DNA from: an uncultured Pelagibacteraceae bacterium
GTDB lineage: Bacteria > Pseudomonadota > Alphaproteobacteria > Pelagibacterales > Pelagibacteraceae
Direction: 5' to 3'
Assembly (NCBI GenBank): GCA_902610115.1
Contig: CACLUK010000004.1
Span: 515 to 64,514 of the forward strand
Length of the DNA stretch: 64,000 nucleotides
In this document: positions 59,104-63,119 of the stretch, one piece after another
Numbering within the stretch: position 1 is the stretch's first letter
How the letters are laid out: the number at the start of each line of letters is the position of its first letter
Program-made: the position numbers and the translations under genes
The notes under the pieces: model-generated
Database searches by the model: none
What the model was told of the DNA's origin: nothing
Seen by the model: only the letters and a program-made list of their open reading frames with translations

Positions 59104-59994
59104 TTAATCCAACCAAGCTTTATATTTTTCAAGATTTTCTAATACAGTAAATGGCAGCTGATCATAATTTATTTTTTTAAGAGTAGATTTACCAGACCAT
59201 TTATAACCTTTTTGGTCCACATTGTGGTCATACATTACTCTTTTTTCTGAAATAAGTTTTTTTAAATCACTTATTTTTAAACCACTTTCTTCAAATTCGT
59301 AATGATGAGCAAAATTAAGAAGTTTTTTTTCTAGTTCTTCGGGTGTTCGTAAACAAGTAAAATGCCAGCCACCATTTTTTACAAAATATAAGTTTGAGTA
59401 CTTTTTTTTTGAGAAGAGTACATCAATTCTCCATTTAGAATATTTTTTCCCCTTAATATTTCTCAGCCATTGTGGAGAAATAAAATTTTTATTTTTTACT
59501 GCTTTAGTTCCATGCCAAGTATAATCACTATAAAGTAAATTTAATTTGTAGTAGAACATTTTTTGCTCAAAAATTAAGATATTATTATTAATTTTTGCAA
59601 AATTTACATTAGACAAGTTTGGAATTTCATCTAAATCACTTATTAAAACTAAATCATCTTCGCTTAGATTTTCTAATCCTCTTTTTAAATTTTCCCTTTG
59701 AAAGTAGTCTCTCGCCATTCCATTAAGTATCAATTTTTCACCTCTTTTACCCTTCGTATCTGTCTCACATAATTCTAAAATGTTATCAGGTTTTTTATCA
59801 ACAACTATATAAATTATTTTATCTTTAAATTTACTGAATTTTTTAATGTCAAACCTTAGGTTCTTTTTGCTACCGTTATGGGTGTATGTTGCCTCAGTTA
59901 TGACAAATTTTTTTACAAACTTATTTAACGTATTTAACCTTAAATCTAAAAGTAAATCTTCGTCGAAATACATAAAGCAGTCATAAATATTCAT
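59104..59994 (-). CDS. Glycosyltransferase family 17 (GnT-III/MGAT3-like beta-1,4-GlcNAc transferase fold)
   Basis: IYDCF.YF.E..LL.LRL..L...V..FVI.E...TH.G..K, FQR, DxD motif SDLDEIP, GGWHF; start at MNIYD (59994). Confidence 0.82.
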   Translation of the reverse strand: MNIYDCFMYFDEDLLLDLRLNTLNKFVKKFVITEATYTHNGSKKNLRFDIKKFSKFKDKIIYIVVDKKPDNILELCETDTKGKRGEKLILNGMARDYFQRENLKRGLENLSEDDLVLISDLDEIPNLSNVNFAKINNNILIFEQKMFYYKLNLLYSDYTWHGTKAVKNKNFISPQWLRNIKGKKYSKWRIDVLFSKKKYSNLYFVKNGGWHFTCLRTPEELEKKLLNFAHHYEFEESGLKISDLKKLISEKRVMYDHNVDQKGYKWSGKSTLKKINYDQLPFTVLENLEKYKAWLD

Positions 59995-60046: not shown

Positions 60047-62599
60047 ATGAAAAAGAAAATCATAATTACAGGTGGATTAGGATATATAGGTACAGAATTA
60101 TGTAGATTGTATTCAGGCGTAAGTTGGCATCATAATATTTTGGTGGTTGATAATAGATTTATATCTGAAAGAGTAAATCAAATTAGAAATTGGAATATGG
60201 AATTTATTCATGGAGATATTTTGAATAAAGACTTAGTTAATAAATATTTTAAGAACGCGGATGTTGTACATCACTTGGCTGGAATAACTTCAGTACCAAG
60301 AACCAAAAGTGAGTCTTCAAAAGAAATAGATGATAAAATAAAATTAGTAGCTGTAGAGGGCACACAAAATATTTTAGATGCAATAAGCAATGAATGTAAG
60401 TTAATTTTTCCCTCTACTCATGTCGTGTACGAGGGAATATCTGAAGTCAAAAAAGACATTAAAGAGGATGAAGCTACCTTACCAGTTTTATCATACTCAC
60501 TATCTAAAGCTGAAAACGAAAAACAATTGAAAGAGTCTGGTAAAAATTATGTAATCCTAAGATTAGGATCTGTATATGGATACTCAAACGATACAATGCG
60601 AATAGATATTATGCCTAATTTATTTTCTAAAATTGCATCTCAAAATGGAACAATTAAATTGTTTGCAGCTGGCAGACAAATAAAAAGTTTGGTTCCTCTG
60701 GTTGACGTCGCAAGATGTTTTAAGTTTATTGAGGAAAGTGATCAAATAAAGTCTGATTTATTCAACTTAACAAAAGATACTTTAACAGTAAAAGAGGTAG
60801 CGGAAATTTGTAAAAAACATAACCCAAAAATCCATCTAAGGGAAACCAACGATGAAATTCCAAATTTGGGTTTTTCTTTGTCAAACAAGAAGATATTAAA
60901 AACGGGATTTAAATTTCTTTATAATATTGATCAAAATATAAAAGAAATGATTGATAAGTGGTCAAAACAAAATTTAATAAAAGATCTGGAGTATATAAGA
61001 GATGGTGAGAATTTGTTTATCGATAATAGAGGTAAAATAAGTAACCATGAGCTTACAGAGCCAATCAATTTAATTGGACTAATAGATTCGAAAAAAGGAA
61101 CTATCAGAGCAAACCATTATCACCCACAACAAGAACAAAAATGTTTATTCACTAAAGGGCAAATCATAGAAATTTTTCAAGATGTAATAAATCCAGACTC
61201 CCCAAAAGTAACCCAGGTAGTGAATGAAGGACAGCTTTCAATTATAAAACCTAATGTTGCTCATACAATGGTTTTTACAAAAGACACTACTTTCTTAAAT
61301 TTAGTGAGAGGAGAGAGGGACCATGAAAATTATGGCATAACCCATACTGTAAAGCACGTTTTTGTAGATGAAAAAGAAAAAAATTTATTATTATCTTGTT
61401 ATAAATTTAATTGCAGATCCTGTGGAAATGGAGAATTAAAAAGAGTTGTATCTTTAGGTTATCATCCATTAGCAAATAATCTTCTTAAGAAACAAAATGA
61501 AAAATGCGAATTGTATCCTCTTGAAGTAAATTATTGTAGCAAATGTCATAACTGCCAATTATCTGTCTCTGTTGATCCAAAAAAAATGTTTTCCAAATAC
61601 CTTTATACTTCTTCAACTTCAAAAGTATTTAGAGAACATTTTGTCAAAGCATCAAAAAAATATATTAAGGATTTAAAATTAAATAAAAAATCTTATATTA
61701 TTGATGTTGGAAGTAATGATGGTGTTGCTTTAAAACCATTTTTAGATCAAGGCTTTAAAAGACTACTTGGCGTAGAACCAGCAAAAAATTTAGCTAAATT
61801 GGCAAATAAAAATGGAGTTAAAACTTTTAATGGTTTCTTAGACAAAAAAAATATTAAAAAGATAAAAAAAGGTGCAGATTTGATTTTAGCCTCAAATGTT
61901 TTTGCACACTCTGATAAATTACATGAAATGGCGGAGTGTATGCTTAAACTTCTTAGTAAAAAAGGCACAATTATTATTGAGGTTCAATACTTAATGAATA
62001 CATTGAAAGATCTTACATTTGATAATATTTACCATGAGCATTACAACTATTGGTCTCTTACTTCACTTACTAATTTTTTTGAAAAATTTGATAGTAAAAT
62101 ATTTAGATCAGAAAAAGTCGATACTCATGGTGGTTCAATAAGAGTTTATATTAAAAAAGGCAAAAATACTAAAATTGAAAAAAGCGTGAAGCAAATGCTC
62201 AAAGAGGAGGAAAAATTTGGAATTAAGAAATTTGAAACATACAAAAAATTTGGTGAAAAAGTTTACGAAATTAGAGAAAATGTGAGAAAAAATATAAAAA
62301 AAATTAGTAAAGAAAATAAATTAATTATAGGTTATGGTGCACCCGCAAAAGCAACTACAGCTTTAAATTTTTTTGGAATTTCAAAAGAAATAGATTTTAT
62401 AGTAGAAGACAATCCATTAAAACATAATAAATTTATTCCAGGAGTAAAAATTCCTATTAAAAATAAATCTCAAATTAAAAATAGAAAAAATACATTAATT
62501 GTTTTAGCCTGGAACTTTTATGCAGATATTAAAAAAAATAATACTAAACTCTCAGAAAATTTTATTAATATAAAAGATTTAGAAATTATTAATAAGTGA
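60047..62599 (+). CDS. Tri-domain nucleotide-sugar enzyme: extended SDR + cupin + Zn/SAM NDP-sugar C-methyltransferase
   Basis: SDR: GGLGYIG, HLAG, ST, YSLSK. Cupin: DNRG, RANHYH, PNVAH. C-methyltransferase: CRSC/CSKC, DVGSNDG, NVFAH, FDNIYHEH, THGGS, GYGAPAK, LAWNF. Confidence 0.85.
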   Translation: MKKKIIITGGLGYIGTELCRLYSGVSWHHNILVVDNRFISERVNQIRNWNMEFIHGDILNKDLVNKYFKNADVVHHLAGITSVPRTKSESSKEIDDKIKLVAVEGTQNILDAISNECKLIFPSTHVVYEGISEVKKDIKEDEATLPVLSYSLSKAENEKQLKESGKNYVILRLGSVYGYSNDTMRIDIMPNLFSKIASQNGTIKLFAAGRQIKSLVPLVDVARCFKFIEESDQIKSDLFNLTKDTLTVKEVAEICKKHNPKIHLRETNDEIPNLGFSLSNKKILKTGFKFLYNIDQNIKEMIDKWSKQNLIKDLEYIRDGENLFIDNRGKISNHELTEPINLIGLIDSKKGTIRANHYHPQQEQKCLFTKGQIIEIFQDVINPDSPKVTQVVNEGQLSIIKPNVAHTMVFTKDTTFLNLVRGERDHENYGITHTVKHVFVDEKEKNLLLSCYKFNCRSCGNGELKRVVSLGYHPLANNLLKKQNEKCELYPLEVNYCSKCHNCQLSVSVDPKKMFSKYLYTSSTSKVFREHFVKASKKYIKDLKLNKKSYIIDVGSNDGVALKPFLDQGFKRLLGVEPAKNLAKLANKNGVKTFNGFLDKKNIKKIKKGADLILASNVFAHSDKLHEMAECMLKLLSKKGTIIIEVQYLMNTLKDLTFDNIYHEHYNYWSLTSLTNFFEKFDSKIFRSEKVDTHGGSIRVYIKKGKNTKIEKSVKQMLKEEEKFGIKKFETYKKFGEKVYEIRENVRKNIKKISKENKLIIGYGAPAKATTALNFFGISKEIDFIVEDNPLKHNKFIPGVKIPIKNKSQIKNRKNTLIVLAWNFYADIKKNNTKLSENFINIKDLEIINK

Positions 62600-63119
62600 T
62601 TAGATTTTTCCAAATTTCAAAAATATTTCTAATACTTTCAAAAAAATAATTCAAATAGTATTCTGATGCTGGTATATTTGAGACTATAAATCCCTGGGAA
62701 AAATATAAAATTCGTGACAAAGCAATCACGAAAAAAATCAGTAAAATAAGAGAGTTATAAAATCCAAAAGAAATATCTCCTTTTTCTTTTTTAATAACCT
62801 TTTTTGTAGGTTGTGAGTCTTCAATTTTGATGCCATGCTTTTTTGCTAAATATTCGGGTGAGTACAAACTGATTTCTCTTTGTTTTTTTGGAGTAGTTTT
62901 TTTAACTTTTTTCGGTTTTTGTATTTTTTGTTGAACCGGCTGAGGTTTTGAGACTATTTTTTGTGGTTGAGAAATTGTTTGAGGATTTTTAACTTCACCT
63001 ACAGGAAATTGTTTCCATTTTAATCCACAAAAACCACACTGAACCAGTCTGCCAGATAATGGAATCGAGTTATCTGGAAGTGTAAATTTTTTTTCACCAC
63101 AATTACAAGTTATAATCAT
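62589..63119 (-). CDS. MJ0042-type zinc-ribbon membrane protein (ZitP-like N-terminus)
   Basis: MIITCNC...F......IP..GR.VQC..C...W, Pro/Lys/Gln linker, C-terminal TM helix. Confidence 0.75.
   Translation of the reverse strand: MIITCNCGEKKFTLPDNSIPLSGRLVQCGFCGLKWKQFPVGEVKNPQTISQPQKIVSKPQPVQQKIQKPKKVKKTTPKKQREISLYSPEYLAKKHGIKIEDSQPTKKVIKKEKGDISFGFYNSLILLIFFVIALSRILYFSQGFIVSNIPASEYYLNYFFESIRNIFEIWKNLITY

What the first reader, a model, noticed from the sequence alone, without database searches (positions are those of the whole stretch)
60047..62599. Single-polypeptide branched-chain sugar synthase: SDR reductase + cupin + C-methyltransferase fusion
Seen: one uninterrupted 850-aa ORF with three apparently intact modules. 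These are an extended SDR (about aa 1-305; GGLGYIG, Ser/Thr, Y150xxxK), a metal-binding cupin (about aa 315-440; DNRG, R354ANHYH, PNVAH) and a TcaB9/NovU-family C-methyltransferase (from C456RSC; CSKC, SAM motif DVGSNDG, NVFAH, IYHEH). Known: SDR+cupin is the CapF/WbjC epimerase-reductase architecture, and in noviose- or mycarose-type pathways epimerase, C-methyltransferase and 4-ketoreductase are separate proteins (e.g. NovW/NovU/NovS). Inference: the protein converts an NDP-4-keto-6-deoxyhexose to a C-methyl branched sugar (virenose/evalose/noviose-like) for surface decoration, which could matter for phage or grazer recognition. I do not know of a characterised protein with this three-way architecture.
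Basis: partly seen in the sequence, partly recalled or inferred. Interest (0 to 1): 0.8.

Follow-up and report, generated by a model that had tools for sequence, protein, structure and literature searches.

The report
Three-in-one branched-sugar enzyme in SAR11
A real, conserved 850-residue SAR11 protein joins a sugar-nucleotide oxidoreductase, a small epimerase/isomerase-type barrel and a sugar C-methyltransferase, most likely makes a methyl-branched sugar for the neighbouring glycosyltransferase, and is also carried by many marine phages.

Summary
The domains are an extended SDR (aa 1-305), a cupin (about 315-440) and a TylC3/TcaB9/MtmC-type NDP-sugar C-methyltransferase (456-840).

It is not a chimera. 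The same full-length gene lies between lon and nuoA in nearly all genomes of this SAR11 genus. It is an accessory gene in another genus of the same family, and it occurs on at least 50 IMG/VR viral contigs.

A fast-diverging GT17-like glycosyltransferase is its divergent neighbour. In one metagenomic relative that transferase is fused to the C-terminus.

Best reading (about 0.45): it takes an NDP-4-keto-6-deoxyhexose, epimerises or isomerises it, C-methylates it and reduces C4.

Close rival (about 0.37): the SDR, whose best solved relative is a chain I recall as the Cj1427 C4-dehydrogenase, makes the 4-keto group itself. The enzyme would then be self-contained.

I found no characterised protein with this architecture. 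The other first-reader note on this stretch (GT17 plus synthase as a two-gene unit) agrees with my result. I rate it a new variant of a known kind, of moderate interest.

The parts
60047..62599 (+). Whole 850-aa fusion gene (SDR + cupin + sugar C-methyltransferase)
   Evidence: full-length orthologues
60047..60961 (+). Extended SDR domain, aa 1-305: GGLGYIG, Asp35 (NAD-type), Ser123/Tyr150/Lys154. It lacks the Asp-Glu pair of 4,6-dehydratases (reads STHVV).
   Evidence: (6vo6: 99.7 bits over aa 1-305)
60989..61366 (+). Cupin domain, aa 315-440: DNRG, RANHYH, PNVAH, conserved Tyr429/His433
61412..61591 (+). Four-cysteine zinc-binding domain of the C-methyltransferase, aa 456-515 (Cys456, 459, 497, 500)
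61592..62116 (+). SAM-binding Rossmann core of the methyltransferase, aa 516-690 (DVGSNDG; NVFAH; IYHEH)
62117..62557 (+). C-methyltransferase C-terminal domain (PF08484), aa 691-837
   Evidence: (144 bits)
59104..59994 (-). GT17-like glycosyltransferase (296 aa from the ATG at 59994), divergent neighbour and probable user of the product
   Evidence: present in 68 of 77 loci; fused to the C-terminus in P0123
59995..60046 (.). 52-bp divergent intergenic region between the two genes; one promoter-like match, no more than chance gives

Best explanation
The protein is a trifunctional NDP-sugar enzyme that makes a C-methyl branched sugar nucleotide. All of its chemistry turns on a 4-keto intermediate.

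Most likely route: an NDP-4-keto-6-deoxyhexose made elsewhere by a 4,6-dehydratase enters. RmlB was found in every genome tested, and GMD in many hosts and phages. The cupin epimerises C3 and/or C5, or shifts the keto group. The TylC3/TcaB9-type domain methylates the enolate carbon with SAM (C3 by analogy; C5 is possible). The N-terminal SDR then reduces C4 with NAD(P)H. The finished sugar nucleotide goes to the adjacent glycosyltransferase (GT17-like here, GT2 in other genomes) for an envelope glycan.

Shown: the three domains, their conserved catalytic residues, conservation of the fusion, and the link to a transferase.

Inferred: the substrate, the order of steps, the carbon methylated, the direction in which the SDR works, and the acceptor.
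For: Methyltransferase: it aligns over 374 residues with MtmC (4rv9, 210 bits) and TcaB9 (3ndi, 171 bits). The residues I recall as catalytic in TcaB9 (His181, Tyr222, Glu224, His225) align with conserved residues here (NVFAH, IYHEH), as do the four zinc cysteines.

Cupin: the model (pLDDT 84) matches only NDP-4-keto-sugar isomerases and epimerases at the top of the list. The profile search hits the CapF cupin (E 3.9e-5) and FdtA (E 8e-4), and the two histidines I recall as FdtA's catalytic pair align with His357/His359.

SDR: the Ser-Tyr-Lys triad is invariant.

Selection: all domains are similarly conserved among orthologues, at 67-78% mean pairwise identity.

SDR followed by cupin is the same domain order as in CapF, which I recall as a reductase-epimerase.

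A GMD-like gene lies within 5-6 kb in about 12 of 50 viral loci and 6 of about 30 metagenome loci. It is also found in 3 of 5 whole phage records.

RmlB scored over its curated cut-off in all 5 GMD-less host genomes tested.

Transferase link: the neighbour is GT17-like in 68 of 77 loci. P0123 is SDR+cupin+MT+GT17 in one chain and P0216 is GT2+cupin+MT. A GT2 gene lies directly upstream in two other-genus loci (L087 and L090; L089 and L094 have an unscanned ORF of similar size there).
Against: No dehydratase is encoded at the locus, and no single dehydratase family tracks the gene. GMD was not found in 9 of 24 fusion-positive genomes of this genus, nor in 12 of 26 of the other genus, including closed or near-closed genomes (G082 and G083 one contig each, G054 two).

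The SDR is far closer to 6vo6 (which I recall as the Cj1427 C4-dehydrogenase) and to NAD-retaining epimerases and dehydratases than to any solved 4-ketoreductase. RmlD-type reductases score 33 bits or less.

Asp35 suggests NAD rather than NADPH.

In relative P0130 the same N-terminal position holds a dehydratase-like SDR, that is, a maker of the keto group.

Nothing here shows which carbon is methylated.
Confidence: 0.45

Rival explanations
1. Self-priming, redox-neutral enzyme. The SDR keeps NAD bound and first oxidises C4 of an ordinary NDP-sugar, as Cj1427 does with GDP-heptose. The cupin and the methyltransferase act on the 4-keto intermediate. The same SDR then returns the hydride. The net reaction is NDP-sugar + SAM giving NDP-C-methyl-sugar, with no 4,6-dehydratase and no 6-deoxygenation needed.
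For: The best solved relative of the SDR is 6vo6 (30% identity, 99.7 bits over aa 1-305), with the next best at 58 bits. The following hits are all enzymes I know as NAD-retaining (4-epimerases, dehydratases, tyvelose 2-epimerase). Cj1427 is a C4-dehydrogenase with non-exchangeable NADH (PMC10680097). The GxxGxxG motif plus Asp35 in VVDN resembles GalE, UXS and Cj1427 (and own knowledge). P0130 keeps the cupin and methyltransferase (41-57% identity) but carries a dehydratase-like SDR (21% identity; the TSDK motif as I recall it from CDP-glucose 4,6-dehydratases; best NCBIfam matches are dTDP-glucose and CDP-glucose 4,6-dehydratase, both below their cut-offs) at the same position, as if that position supplies the keto group. 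GMD is absent from many fusion-positive genomes. Phage records G323 and G324 show no dehydratase. The gene is a core gene set among housekeeping genes.
Against: A C4-dehydrogenase and a 4-ketoreductase catalyse the same reaction in opposite directions, so likeness to Cj1427 does not fix the direction. RmlB is present in every host genome tested. GMD is a recurrent neighbour in phages. I know of no precedent for C-methylation through transient oxidation. That 6vo6 is Cj1427 rests on my memory; the PDB name reads only 'putative sugar-nucleotide epimerase/dehydratase'.
Confidence: 0.37
2. Only part of the chain is catalytic in the way assumed. For example, the cupin may be a 3,4-ketoisomerase, so that methylation or reduction happens at another carbon. 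Or the SDR may be a plain epimerase and the product stays a keto sugar for a further enzyme such as an aminotransferase.
For: The closest folds to the cupin are 3,4-ketoisomerases (7n67 Z 13.4, rmsd 1.8 A over 117 residues; QdtA, FdtA, WlaRB Z 12-13), ahead of RmlC-type epimerases (Z about 11, rmsd above 3 A) and CapF (Z 10.8). The HxH pair aligns with the two histidines I recall as FdtA's catalytic pair (His49/His51). Variants lacking one domain exist: SDR+cupin, cupin+MT, SDR+MT. Some phage loci have a second SDR directly downstream.
Against: Solved members of the methyltransferase family act on 4-keto sugars. By sequence profile, CapF (which I recall as a 3-epimerase) is the best match to the cupin. 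No aminotransferase lies at this locus.
Confidence: 0.15
3. Artefact: an assembly chimera or a missed stop joins separate genes.
For: None. Short split forms in the databases are fragments from short or error-prone contigs.
Against:: the full-length open frame occurs in many independent single-cell, metagenome and complete genomes, and in phages.
Confidence: 0.01

Closest known systems
TylC3 / TcaB9 / MtmC / KijD1 NDP-hexose C3-methyltransferases (PDB 3ndi, 4rv9, 5t64)
   Same: Full-length alignment of aa 455-829, with the zinc-cysteine domain, SAM core, C-terminal domain and catalytic His/Tyr/Glu/His conserved.
   Different: Those are stand-alone proteins of about 410 aa from actinomycete antibiotic pathways, acting on dTDP-sugars. 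Here the domain is the C-terminal third of a fusion in a marine alphaproteobacterium and its phages. The nucleotide and the carbon methylated are unknown.
CapF / Cap5F (WbjC) of Staphylococcus aureus (PDB 2zkl, 3st7, 4yrd)
   Same: An SDR followed by a cupin in one chain. The cupin is the best PDB match to the cupin profile (E 3.9e-5), sharing the D-x-R-G and N-H-x-H...E-K...G motifs, with fold Z 10.8.
   Different: CapF's SDR is not among the 60 best sequence matches of this SDR. CapF has no methyltransferase. Whether this cupin binds metal, as I recall CapF does, was not tested.
Cj1427, GDP-D-glycero-D-manno-heptose C4-dehydrogenase of Campylobacter jejuni (I recall it as PDB 6vo6/6vo8)
   Same: Best solved relative of the SDR domain: 30% identity over the whole domain, with the same NAD-type motifs and Ser/Thr-Tyr-Lys.
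   Different: Cj1427 is a stand-alone enzyme that recycles its bound NADH with alpha-ketoglutarate and hands the keto-heptose to a separate cupin epimerase and a separate reductase (PMC10680097). The direction of the reaction here is unknown.
FdtA / QdtA / WlaRA-RB / HCAN_0198 3,4-ketoisomerases
   Same: Closest folds to the cupin model (Z 12-13.4, rmsd about 2 A over about 117 residues). The HxH pair aligns.
   Different: Sequence similarity is marginal (E 8e-4 by profile). The Pfam FdtA model does not hit this protein. No activity data.
Proposed virenose pathway of Coxiella burnetii (PMC3539893)
   Same: A Gram-negative envelope 6-deoxy-3-C-methyl-hexose proposed to be made by a dehydratase, a TylC3-like methyltransferase, and an epimerase/reductase.
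   Different: There the steps are separate genes, and the pathway itself is an in-silico proposal. Here three of the steps are one polypeptide.

Membership tests
TylC3/TcaB9-type NDP-sugar C-methyltransferase | N-terminal four-cysteine zinc domain (PF08421) | tested here: met
   PF08421 E 5.9e-16. Cys456, 459, 497 and 500 are invariant and align with the TcaB9 cysteines.
TylC3/TcaB9-type NDP-sugar C-methyltransferase | Class I SAM-binding core with glycine-rich motif, plus the C-terminal domain PF08484 | tested here: met
   PF13489 E 7.4e-14 and PF08484 E 4.5e-42. DVGSNDG is invariant.
TylC3/TcaB9-type NDP-sugar C-methyltransferase | Catalytic residues equivalent to TcaB9 His181, Tyr222, Glu224, His225 (residue roles from my own knowledge of the Holden-laboratory work) | tested here: met
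   NVFAH aligns with NTLCH and IYHEH with IYDEH in the HMMER alignment to 3ndi. These residues are invariant in 25 homologues.
TylC3/TcaB9-type NDP-sugar C-methyltransferase | SAM-dependent C-methylation of an NDP-4-keto sugar | not testable with these tools
   Needs an enzyme assay.
Extended SDR (NDP-sugar epimerase/dehydratase/reductase superfamily) | GxxGxxG nucleotide fold and Ser/Thr-Tyr-Lys triad | tested here: met
   PF01370 E 1.4e-25. G9, G12, S123, Y150 and K154 are invariant.
NDP-hexose 4,6-dehydratase | Acid/base pair directly after the catalytic Thr (TDE in RmlB, TSE in GMD, SDK in the CDP-glucose enzyme; own knowledge), and a score over NCBIfam cut-offs | tested here: not met
   The sequence reads S123-T124-H125-V126-V127. 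TIGR01181 scores 61.8 bits against a cut-off of 365.
Cj1427-like C4-dehydrogenase | Specific sequence kinship and non-exchangeable NAD(H) | tested here: inconclusive
   Best PDB hit is 6vo6 at 99.7 bits and 30% identity, too distant for orthology. Cofactor retention is not testable here.
CapF/WbjC epimerase-reductase | SDR followed by a cupin in one chain, with a homologous cupin | tested here: met
   Domain order. The cupin profile hits Cap5F at E 3.9e-5.
CapF/WbjC epimerase-reductase | SDR domain homologous to CapF's reductase domain beyond superfamily level | tested here: inconclusive
   CapF chains are not among the 60 best of the 101 PDB hits at E up to 1. Only Cap8E appears, at E 0.017.
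FdtA/QdtA 3,4-ketoisomerase (PF05523) | Small cupin with a catalytic HxH pair and a Pfam FdtA match | tested here: inconclusive
   Fold Z 12-13.4. HxH aligns with the FdtA pair. PF05523 does not hit this protein; it hits only relative P0216, at E 2.9e-5.
RmlC-type 3,5-epimerase (PF00908) | Pfam match and RmlC fold | tested here: inconclusive
   PF00908 E 0.023, below threshold. Fold Z about 11 with rmsd above 3 A.

The most novel reading that the evidence does not exclude
The fusion is a self-contained machine that oxidises, methylates and reduces. Its SDR, of the type I recall for Cj1427, transiently oxidises C4 of a common NDP-sugar with a bound NAD. The cupin and methyltransferase then remodel and C-methylate the keto intermediate, and the hydride is returned. 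This would be a redox-neutral route to branched sugars that needs no 4,6-dehydratase. SAR11 and its phages would have exchanged it as a single gene.
Probability: 0.37. Interest if true: 0.75.

Novelty: new variant of a known kind. Interest (0 to 1): 0.55.

Why it matters
SAR11 is among the most abundant bacterial groups in the sea, yet the chemistry of its envelope glycans is almost unknown. This is a single conserved gene, core in one genus and accessory in another. It predicts a C-methyl branched sugar on the cell surface.

It sits next to a glycosyltransferase that diverges much faster (35-87% identity, against 77-90% for the fusion). That pattern fits diversifying pressure on the surface.

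The same fusion is carried by many marine phages, some inside their replication modules. The sugar may therefore matter in phage-host conflict, for example through surface remodelling or modification of phage components.

For enzymology, it is a natural one-chain version of a multi-enzyme branched-sugar pathway. If the rival reading holds, it is a new way to C-methylate sugars that are not deoxygenated.

Isolate-named genomes carry the gene (HIMB1456, and Uisw_137 with a complete chromosome), so it can be tested.

Tried and rejected
1. Assembly chimera or missed stop: rejected.

2. I tried to decide the SDR's role by showing that hosts lack 4,6-dehydratases. This failed. Dehydratase-type SDRs are present in all five genomes of the genus that I searched. 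RmlB is over its cut-off in all five GMD-less genomes.

3. Phylogenetic profile against GMD. GMD was found in 14 of 26 fusion-positive genomes of the other genus, against 163 of 226 overall, and in 16 of 25 genomes of this genus. There is no positive association, so GMD is not required. This does not exclude dTDP-sugars.

4. A search for stand-alone relatives of the cupin returned only fragments of the fusion.

5. The apparently stand-alone SDR P0148: none of its metagenome relatives proved stand-alone. All those not cut off by the contig end continue into the cupin, as full fusions or SDR+cupin forms, so it gave no independent context.

7. The Cj1427 structure papers are not held, and the code 6VO6 is not found in the held literature. 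Its identity with Cj1427 is from my memory.

8. The weak Pfam hit to PF14667: in the papers that cite it (from their titles and abstracts) and in my memory it is a flippase family, yet here it hits cupins. I did not rely on it.

9. The promoter scan of the 52-bp divergent region gives one match, but the region as a whole has no more matches than shuffled sequence.

10. The Atlas search of the SDR part gave only generic epimerase/dehydratase clusters, several of them viral.
Full report
**Observation**

Window 60047-62599 (+) is a single ATG-initiated ORF of 850 codons with no internal stop. The window has about 28% G+C, where long open frames do not arise by chance.

Pfam places these domains:
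- an NAD-dependent epimerase/dehydratase (extended SDR) domain at aa 5-233
- the C-methyltransferase zinc domain PF08421 at 456-515
- a class I methyltransferase core at 544-682
- the C-methyltransferase C-terminal domain PF08484 at 693-837

Residues 315-440 have no Pfam hit over threshold; Cupin_2 and dTDP_sugar_isom score only weakly. In an alignment of 25 homologues reaching down to 36% identity, all of them are invariant.

**It is not an artefact**

- The 120 best database relatives are all 848-853 aa long, at 82-96% identity, and come from many independent assemblies.
- A scan of one genome per species found relatives in 238 genomes. The best 80 are all near-full-length copies in SAR11 records: Pelagibacteraceae single-cell genomes, MAGs, the isolate-named HIMB1456, and the complete chromosome of Candidatus Pelagibacter sp. 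Uisw_137.
- Among Pelagibacterales genomes at least 80% complete, the gene is present in 24 of 25 of the window's own genus. It is present in 26 of 226 of the largest genus of the same family, in 3 of 4 and 1 of 1 of two small genera, and in 0 of 27 of a second family.
- The single positive in genus g7 is G303, an unpublished genome. That one count rests on it.
- Mean pairwise identity among SAR11 orthologues is similar in all parts: SDR 0.68, cupin 0.78, zinc domain 0.77, methyltransferase core 0.76, C-terminal domain 0.67. The two linkers are lower. No domain is decaying.

**Context**

The gene lies among housekeeping genes: glnA, an EamA transporter, a GT4 transferase, tig, clpP, clpX and lon upstream, and nuoA downstream.

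Its divergent neighbour (59104-59994, minus strand) is a GT17-family glycosyltransferase of 296 aa. A zinc-ribbon gene overlaps the 3' end on the other strand.

In 86 loci the order lon, GT17(-), fusion(+), zinc-ribbon(-), nuoA recurs. Among 77 loci holding both lon and the fusion:
- 68 have a gene-sized gap (about 930-1000 bp in 66 of them, longer in 2) between lon and the fusion; every case I sampled holds a GT17-family gene there
- 9 have no gene in that position

The transferase diverges far more than the fusion: 35-87% identity, or undetectable by BLAST, against 77-90%.

In the larger genus the gene sits in other places. In two loci (L087 and L090) a GT2 transferase lies directly upstream on the same strand; two more loci (L089 and L094) have an unscanned ORF of similar size there.

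Metagenomic relatives fuse the partners. P0123 (1162 aa) is SDR+cupin+MT+GT17, and P0216 is GT2+cupin+MT. I take this as good evidence that the product of the fusion is the donor for the adjacent transferase.

**The methyltransferase**

Residues 455-829 align end to end with MtmC (4rv9, 210 bits), KijD1-type enzymes (5t64) and TcaB9 (3ndi, 171 bits). The four zinc cysteines align. So do the residues I recall as mechanistically important in TcaB9: His181 with NVFAH, and Tyr222/Glu224/His225 with IYHEH. All solved members of this family methylate an NDP-4-keto sugar next to the carbonyl. Membership by sequence is met. The carbon methylated (C3, or C5 as in NovU) cannot be read from the sequence.

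**The cupin**

An AlphaFold model of aa 306-458 (pLDDT 84.4) is a small jelly-roll. Foldseek and the second-look aligner place only NDP-4-keto-sugar enzymes at the top:
- 3,4-ketoisomerases: HCAN_0198 at Z 13.4 with rmsd 1.8 A over 117 residues; WlaRB, QdtA, FdtD and FdtA at Z 12-13
- RmlC-type 3- and 3,5-epimerases, including the Campylobacter heptose epimerases: Z about 11, rmsd above 3 A
- the CapF cupin: Z 10.8, rmsd 2.1 A over 96 residues

A profile of 13 cupin segments from hosts and phages gives a different order by sequence. CapF/Cap5F is best (E 3.9e-5), sharing D-x-R-G and N-H-x-H...E-K...G. FdtA is second (E 8e-4), and the two histidines I recall as its catalytic pair (His49/His51) align with His357/His359.

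The domain is therefore an epimerase or isomerase module for 4-keto sugars. Which of the two it is, and whether it binds a metal, remain open.

**The SDR**

The Ser123/Tyr150/Lys154 triad and the GxxGxxG motif are invariant. The residues after the catalytic Ser-Thr read His-Val-Val, not the acid/base pair of 4,6-dehydratases, and dehydratase models score far below their cut-offs. So it is not a dehydratase.

Its best solved relative by a wide margin is 6vo6: 99.7 bits and 30% identity over aa 1-305, with the next hit at 58 bits. The following hits are enzymes I know as NAD-retaining (4-epimerases, dehydratases, tyvelose 2-epimerase). RmlD-type 4-ketoreductases score 33 bits or less, and CapF is not among the best 60.

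I recall 6vo6 as Cj1427, the GDP-heptose C4-dehydrogenase. I could not confirm the code in the papers held. The enzyme's function and its non-exchangeable NADH are documented in PMC10680097. Asp35 at the end of the second strand suggests NAD rather than NADP; this is from my own knowledge of SDR motifs.

**Two mechanisms fit**

An NDP-4-keto-6-deoxyhexose made elsewhere is epimerised or isomerised, C-methylated and finally reduced at C4 by the SDR.

(2) A self-priming route. The SDR itself oxidises C4 of an ordinary NDP-sugar and later returns the hydride.

I tried to separate them.

Evidence bearing on route 1:
- Dehydratases are not missing. All five genomes of the genus that I searched have several dehydratase-type SDRs.
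- GMD was not found in 9 of 24 fusion-positive genomes of this genus. It was also not found in 12 of 26 of the other genus, among them the closed or near-closed genomes (G082 and G083 one contig each, G054 two). So GMD is not required.
- RmlB is over its curated cut-off in all five of the GMD-less genomes I tested. A dTDP-4-keto-6-deoxyglucose supply cannot be excluded.
- A GMD-like gene lies within 5-6 kb of the fusion in about 12 of 50 viral loci and 6 of about 30 metagenome loci. It occurs somewhere in 3 of 5 whole phage records. This favours route 1 with a GDP-sugar.

Evidence bearing on route 2:
- Relative P0130 keeps the cupin and methyltransferase (41-57% identity) but has a different, dehydratase-like SDR (21% identity). 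It carries the TSDK motif, as I recall it from CDP-glucose 4,6-dehydratases, and its best NCBIfam hits are dTDP-glucose and CDP-glucose 4,6-dehydratase, both below their cut-offs. It sits at the same position. This suggests the N-terminal slot supplies the keto group.

A caution applies to the Cj1427 likeness. A C4-dehydrogenase and a 4-ketoreductase catalyse the same reaction in opposite directions, so the likeness does not fix the direction.

My odds are about 0.45 for route 1, 0.37 for route 2, and 0.15 for variants in which the cupin is a ketoisomerase or the product stays a keto sugar.

**Phages**

A scan of IMG/VR found the full three-domain gene (52-60% identity, aa about 3-846) on at least 50 viral contigs of up to 194 kb.

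These include real phages. In L137 (a 166.6-kb contig) the gene lies between ribonucleotide reductase, a DnaB-type helicase and an exonuclease on one side, and DNA polymerase on the other. Other loci carry sugar genes beside it: a nucleotide-sugar epimerase, a beta-1,4-glycosyltransferase, UDP-glucose dehydrogenase and GT17-like genes.

In a maximum-likelihood tree all SAR11 copies form one clade (SH-aLRT 100). That clade is nested among viral lineages when the tree is rooted on P0130. P0130 is a long branch, so one host-phage exchange is likely but its direction is not shown.

The SDR subfamily seems tied to this architecture. Relatives of the apparently stand-alone SDR P0148 were never stand-alone: wherever the contig continues they run into the cupin, as full fusions or SDR+cupin forms.

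**Whole-chain model**

AlphaFold gives mean pLDDT 83.4 and pTM 0.63 for the 850 residues. The low-confidence parts are the two linkers and some SDR loops (80-89 and 182-199). This fits three folded domains with a moderately defined arrangement. I did not analyse the interfaces.

**Comparison with what is known**

Each domain belongs to a known enzyme family. The logic matches branched-sugar pathways in which the steps are separate proteins, such as noviose, mycarose and the proposed virenose route of Coxiella (PMC3539893).

SDR plus cupin recalls CapF, and the cupins are homologous. The SDRs are not specifically related.

Searches of the held literature found no characterised protein with SDR+cupin+C-methyltransferase. 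Database names are generic, for example 'nucleoside-diphosphate-sugar epimerase/SAM-dependent methyltransferase'.

I rate it a new variant of a known kind. Interest is moderate, at 0.55. It would be higher if the self-priming mechanism or a role in phage-host conflict were shown.

**Earlier scan notes**

The other first-reader note on this same stretch (e1-5458161) reads GT17 and the synthase as a divergent two-gene unit with a shared -10 element. My synteny and fusion data agree on the unit. The shared -10 element is not supported beyond chance.

Noticed in passing
L099-L151 (IMG/VR viral contigs), e.g. L137:4986-7556: The full three-domain fusion is carried by at least 50 viral contigs. In L137 and its identical copies it sits inside the replication module (RNR, DnaB, exonuclease, DNA polymerase). 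What a phage does with a branched-sugar synthase is open: host-surface remodelling, or modification of virion or DNA.
   Followed up: partly
window 59104-59994 (-) and the homologous position in L002-L086: The GT17-like neighbour diverges far more than the fusion (35-87% identity, sometimes undetectable by BLAST). It is duplicated in some loci (L079, L091) and missing in 9 of 77. This looks like diversifying evolution of the transferase beside a conserved donor-sugar gene.
   Followed up: partly
G000:C11:2985-9574 (own genome, outside the window) and many relatives: SAR11 genomes hold further stand-alone TylC3-like C-methyltransferases (30-40% identity to this one), often next to SDR and dehydratase genes. 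One relative (G017) has three. The own-genome copy (C11:3490-4656) shows a TAG inside the match. Branched C-methyl sugars may be common in SAR11 glycans.
   Followed up: no
L092:2838-4805, L093:7739-9706, L095:7775-9739: In a small sister genus the GT17 gene is absent. A 655-aa gene lies between the fusion and the zinc-ribbon gene; the L093 copy scans as an AMP-binding (adenylate-forming) enzyme.
   Followed up: no
window 62589-63119 (-): A 176-aa zinc-ribbon protein (PF13717, E 3.2e-6, just under Pfam's gathering score) overlaps the 3' end of the fusion by 11 bases. It keeps its place next to the fusion in most loci (35-61% identity). Function unknown.
   Followed up: no
L096:4959-6656 (-) in genome G039: In the second SAR11 family a stand-alone 145-aa cupin and a 415-aa C-methyltransferase are adjacent genes. 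They sit in a cluster with a PglF-like membrane dehydratase, a GFO/IDH/MocA oxidoreductase, GT1, GT2 and GT4 transferases and a PIG-L deacetylase. This is an unfused version of part of the module, probably acting on a UDP-2-acetamido sugar.
   Followed up: partly
Pfam PF14667 hits in P0216 (aa 292-400) and L096:6219-6656: The model labelled 'Polysaccharide biosynthesis C-terminal domain' hits these cupin domains over its cut-off. Yet the papers that cite PF14667 appear, from their titles and abstracts, to concern flippase- or MATE-type membrane transporters. Either the label or the model deserves a look.
   Followed up: partly
L167, L172, L173, L192 and P0128: Variants with the SDR and cupin but no methyltransferase following them exist in metagenomes, some near GMD-like genes. 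They may be CapF-like epimerase-reductases, or epimerases that work by transient oxidation.
   Followed up: no
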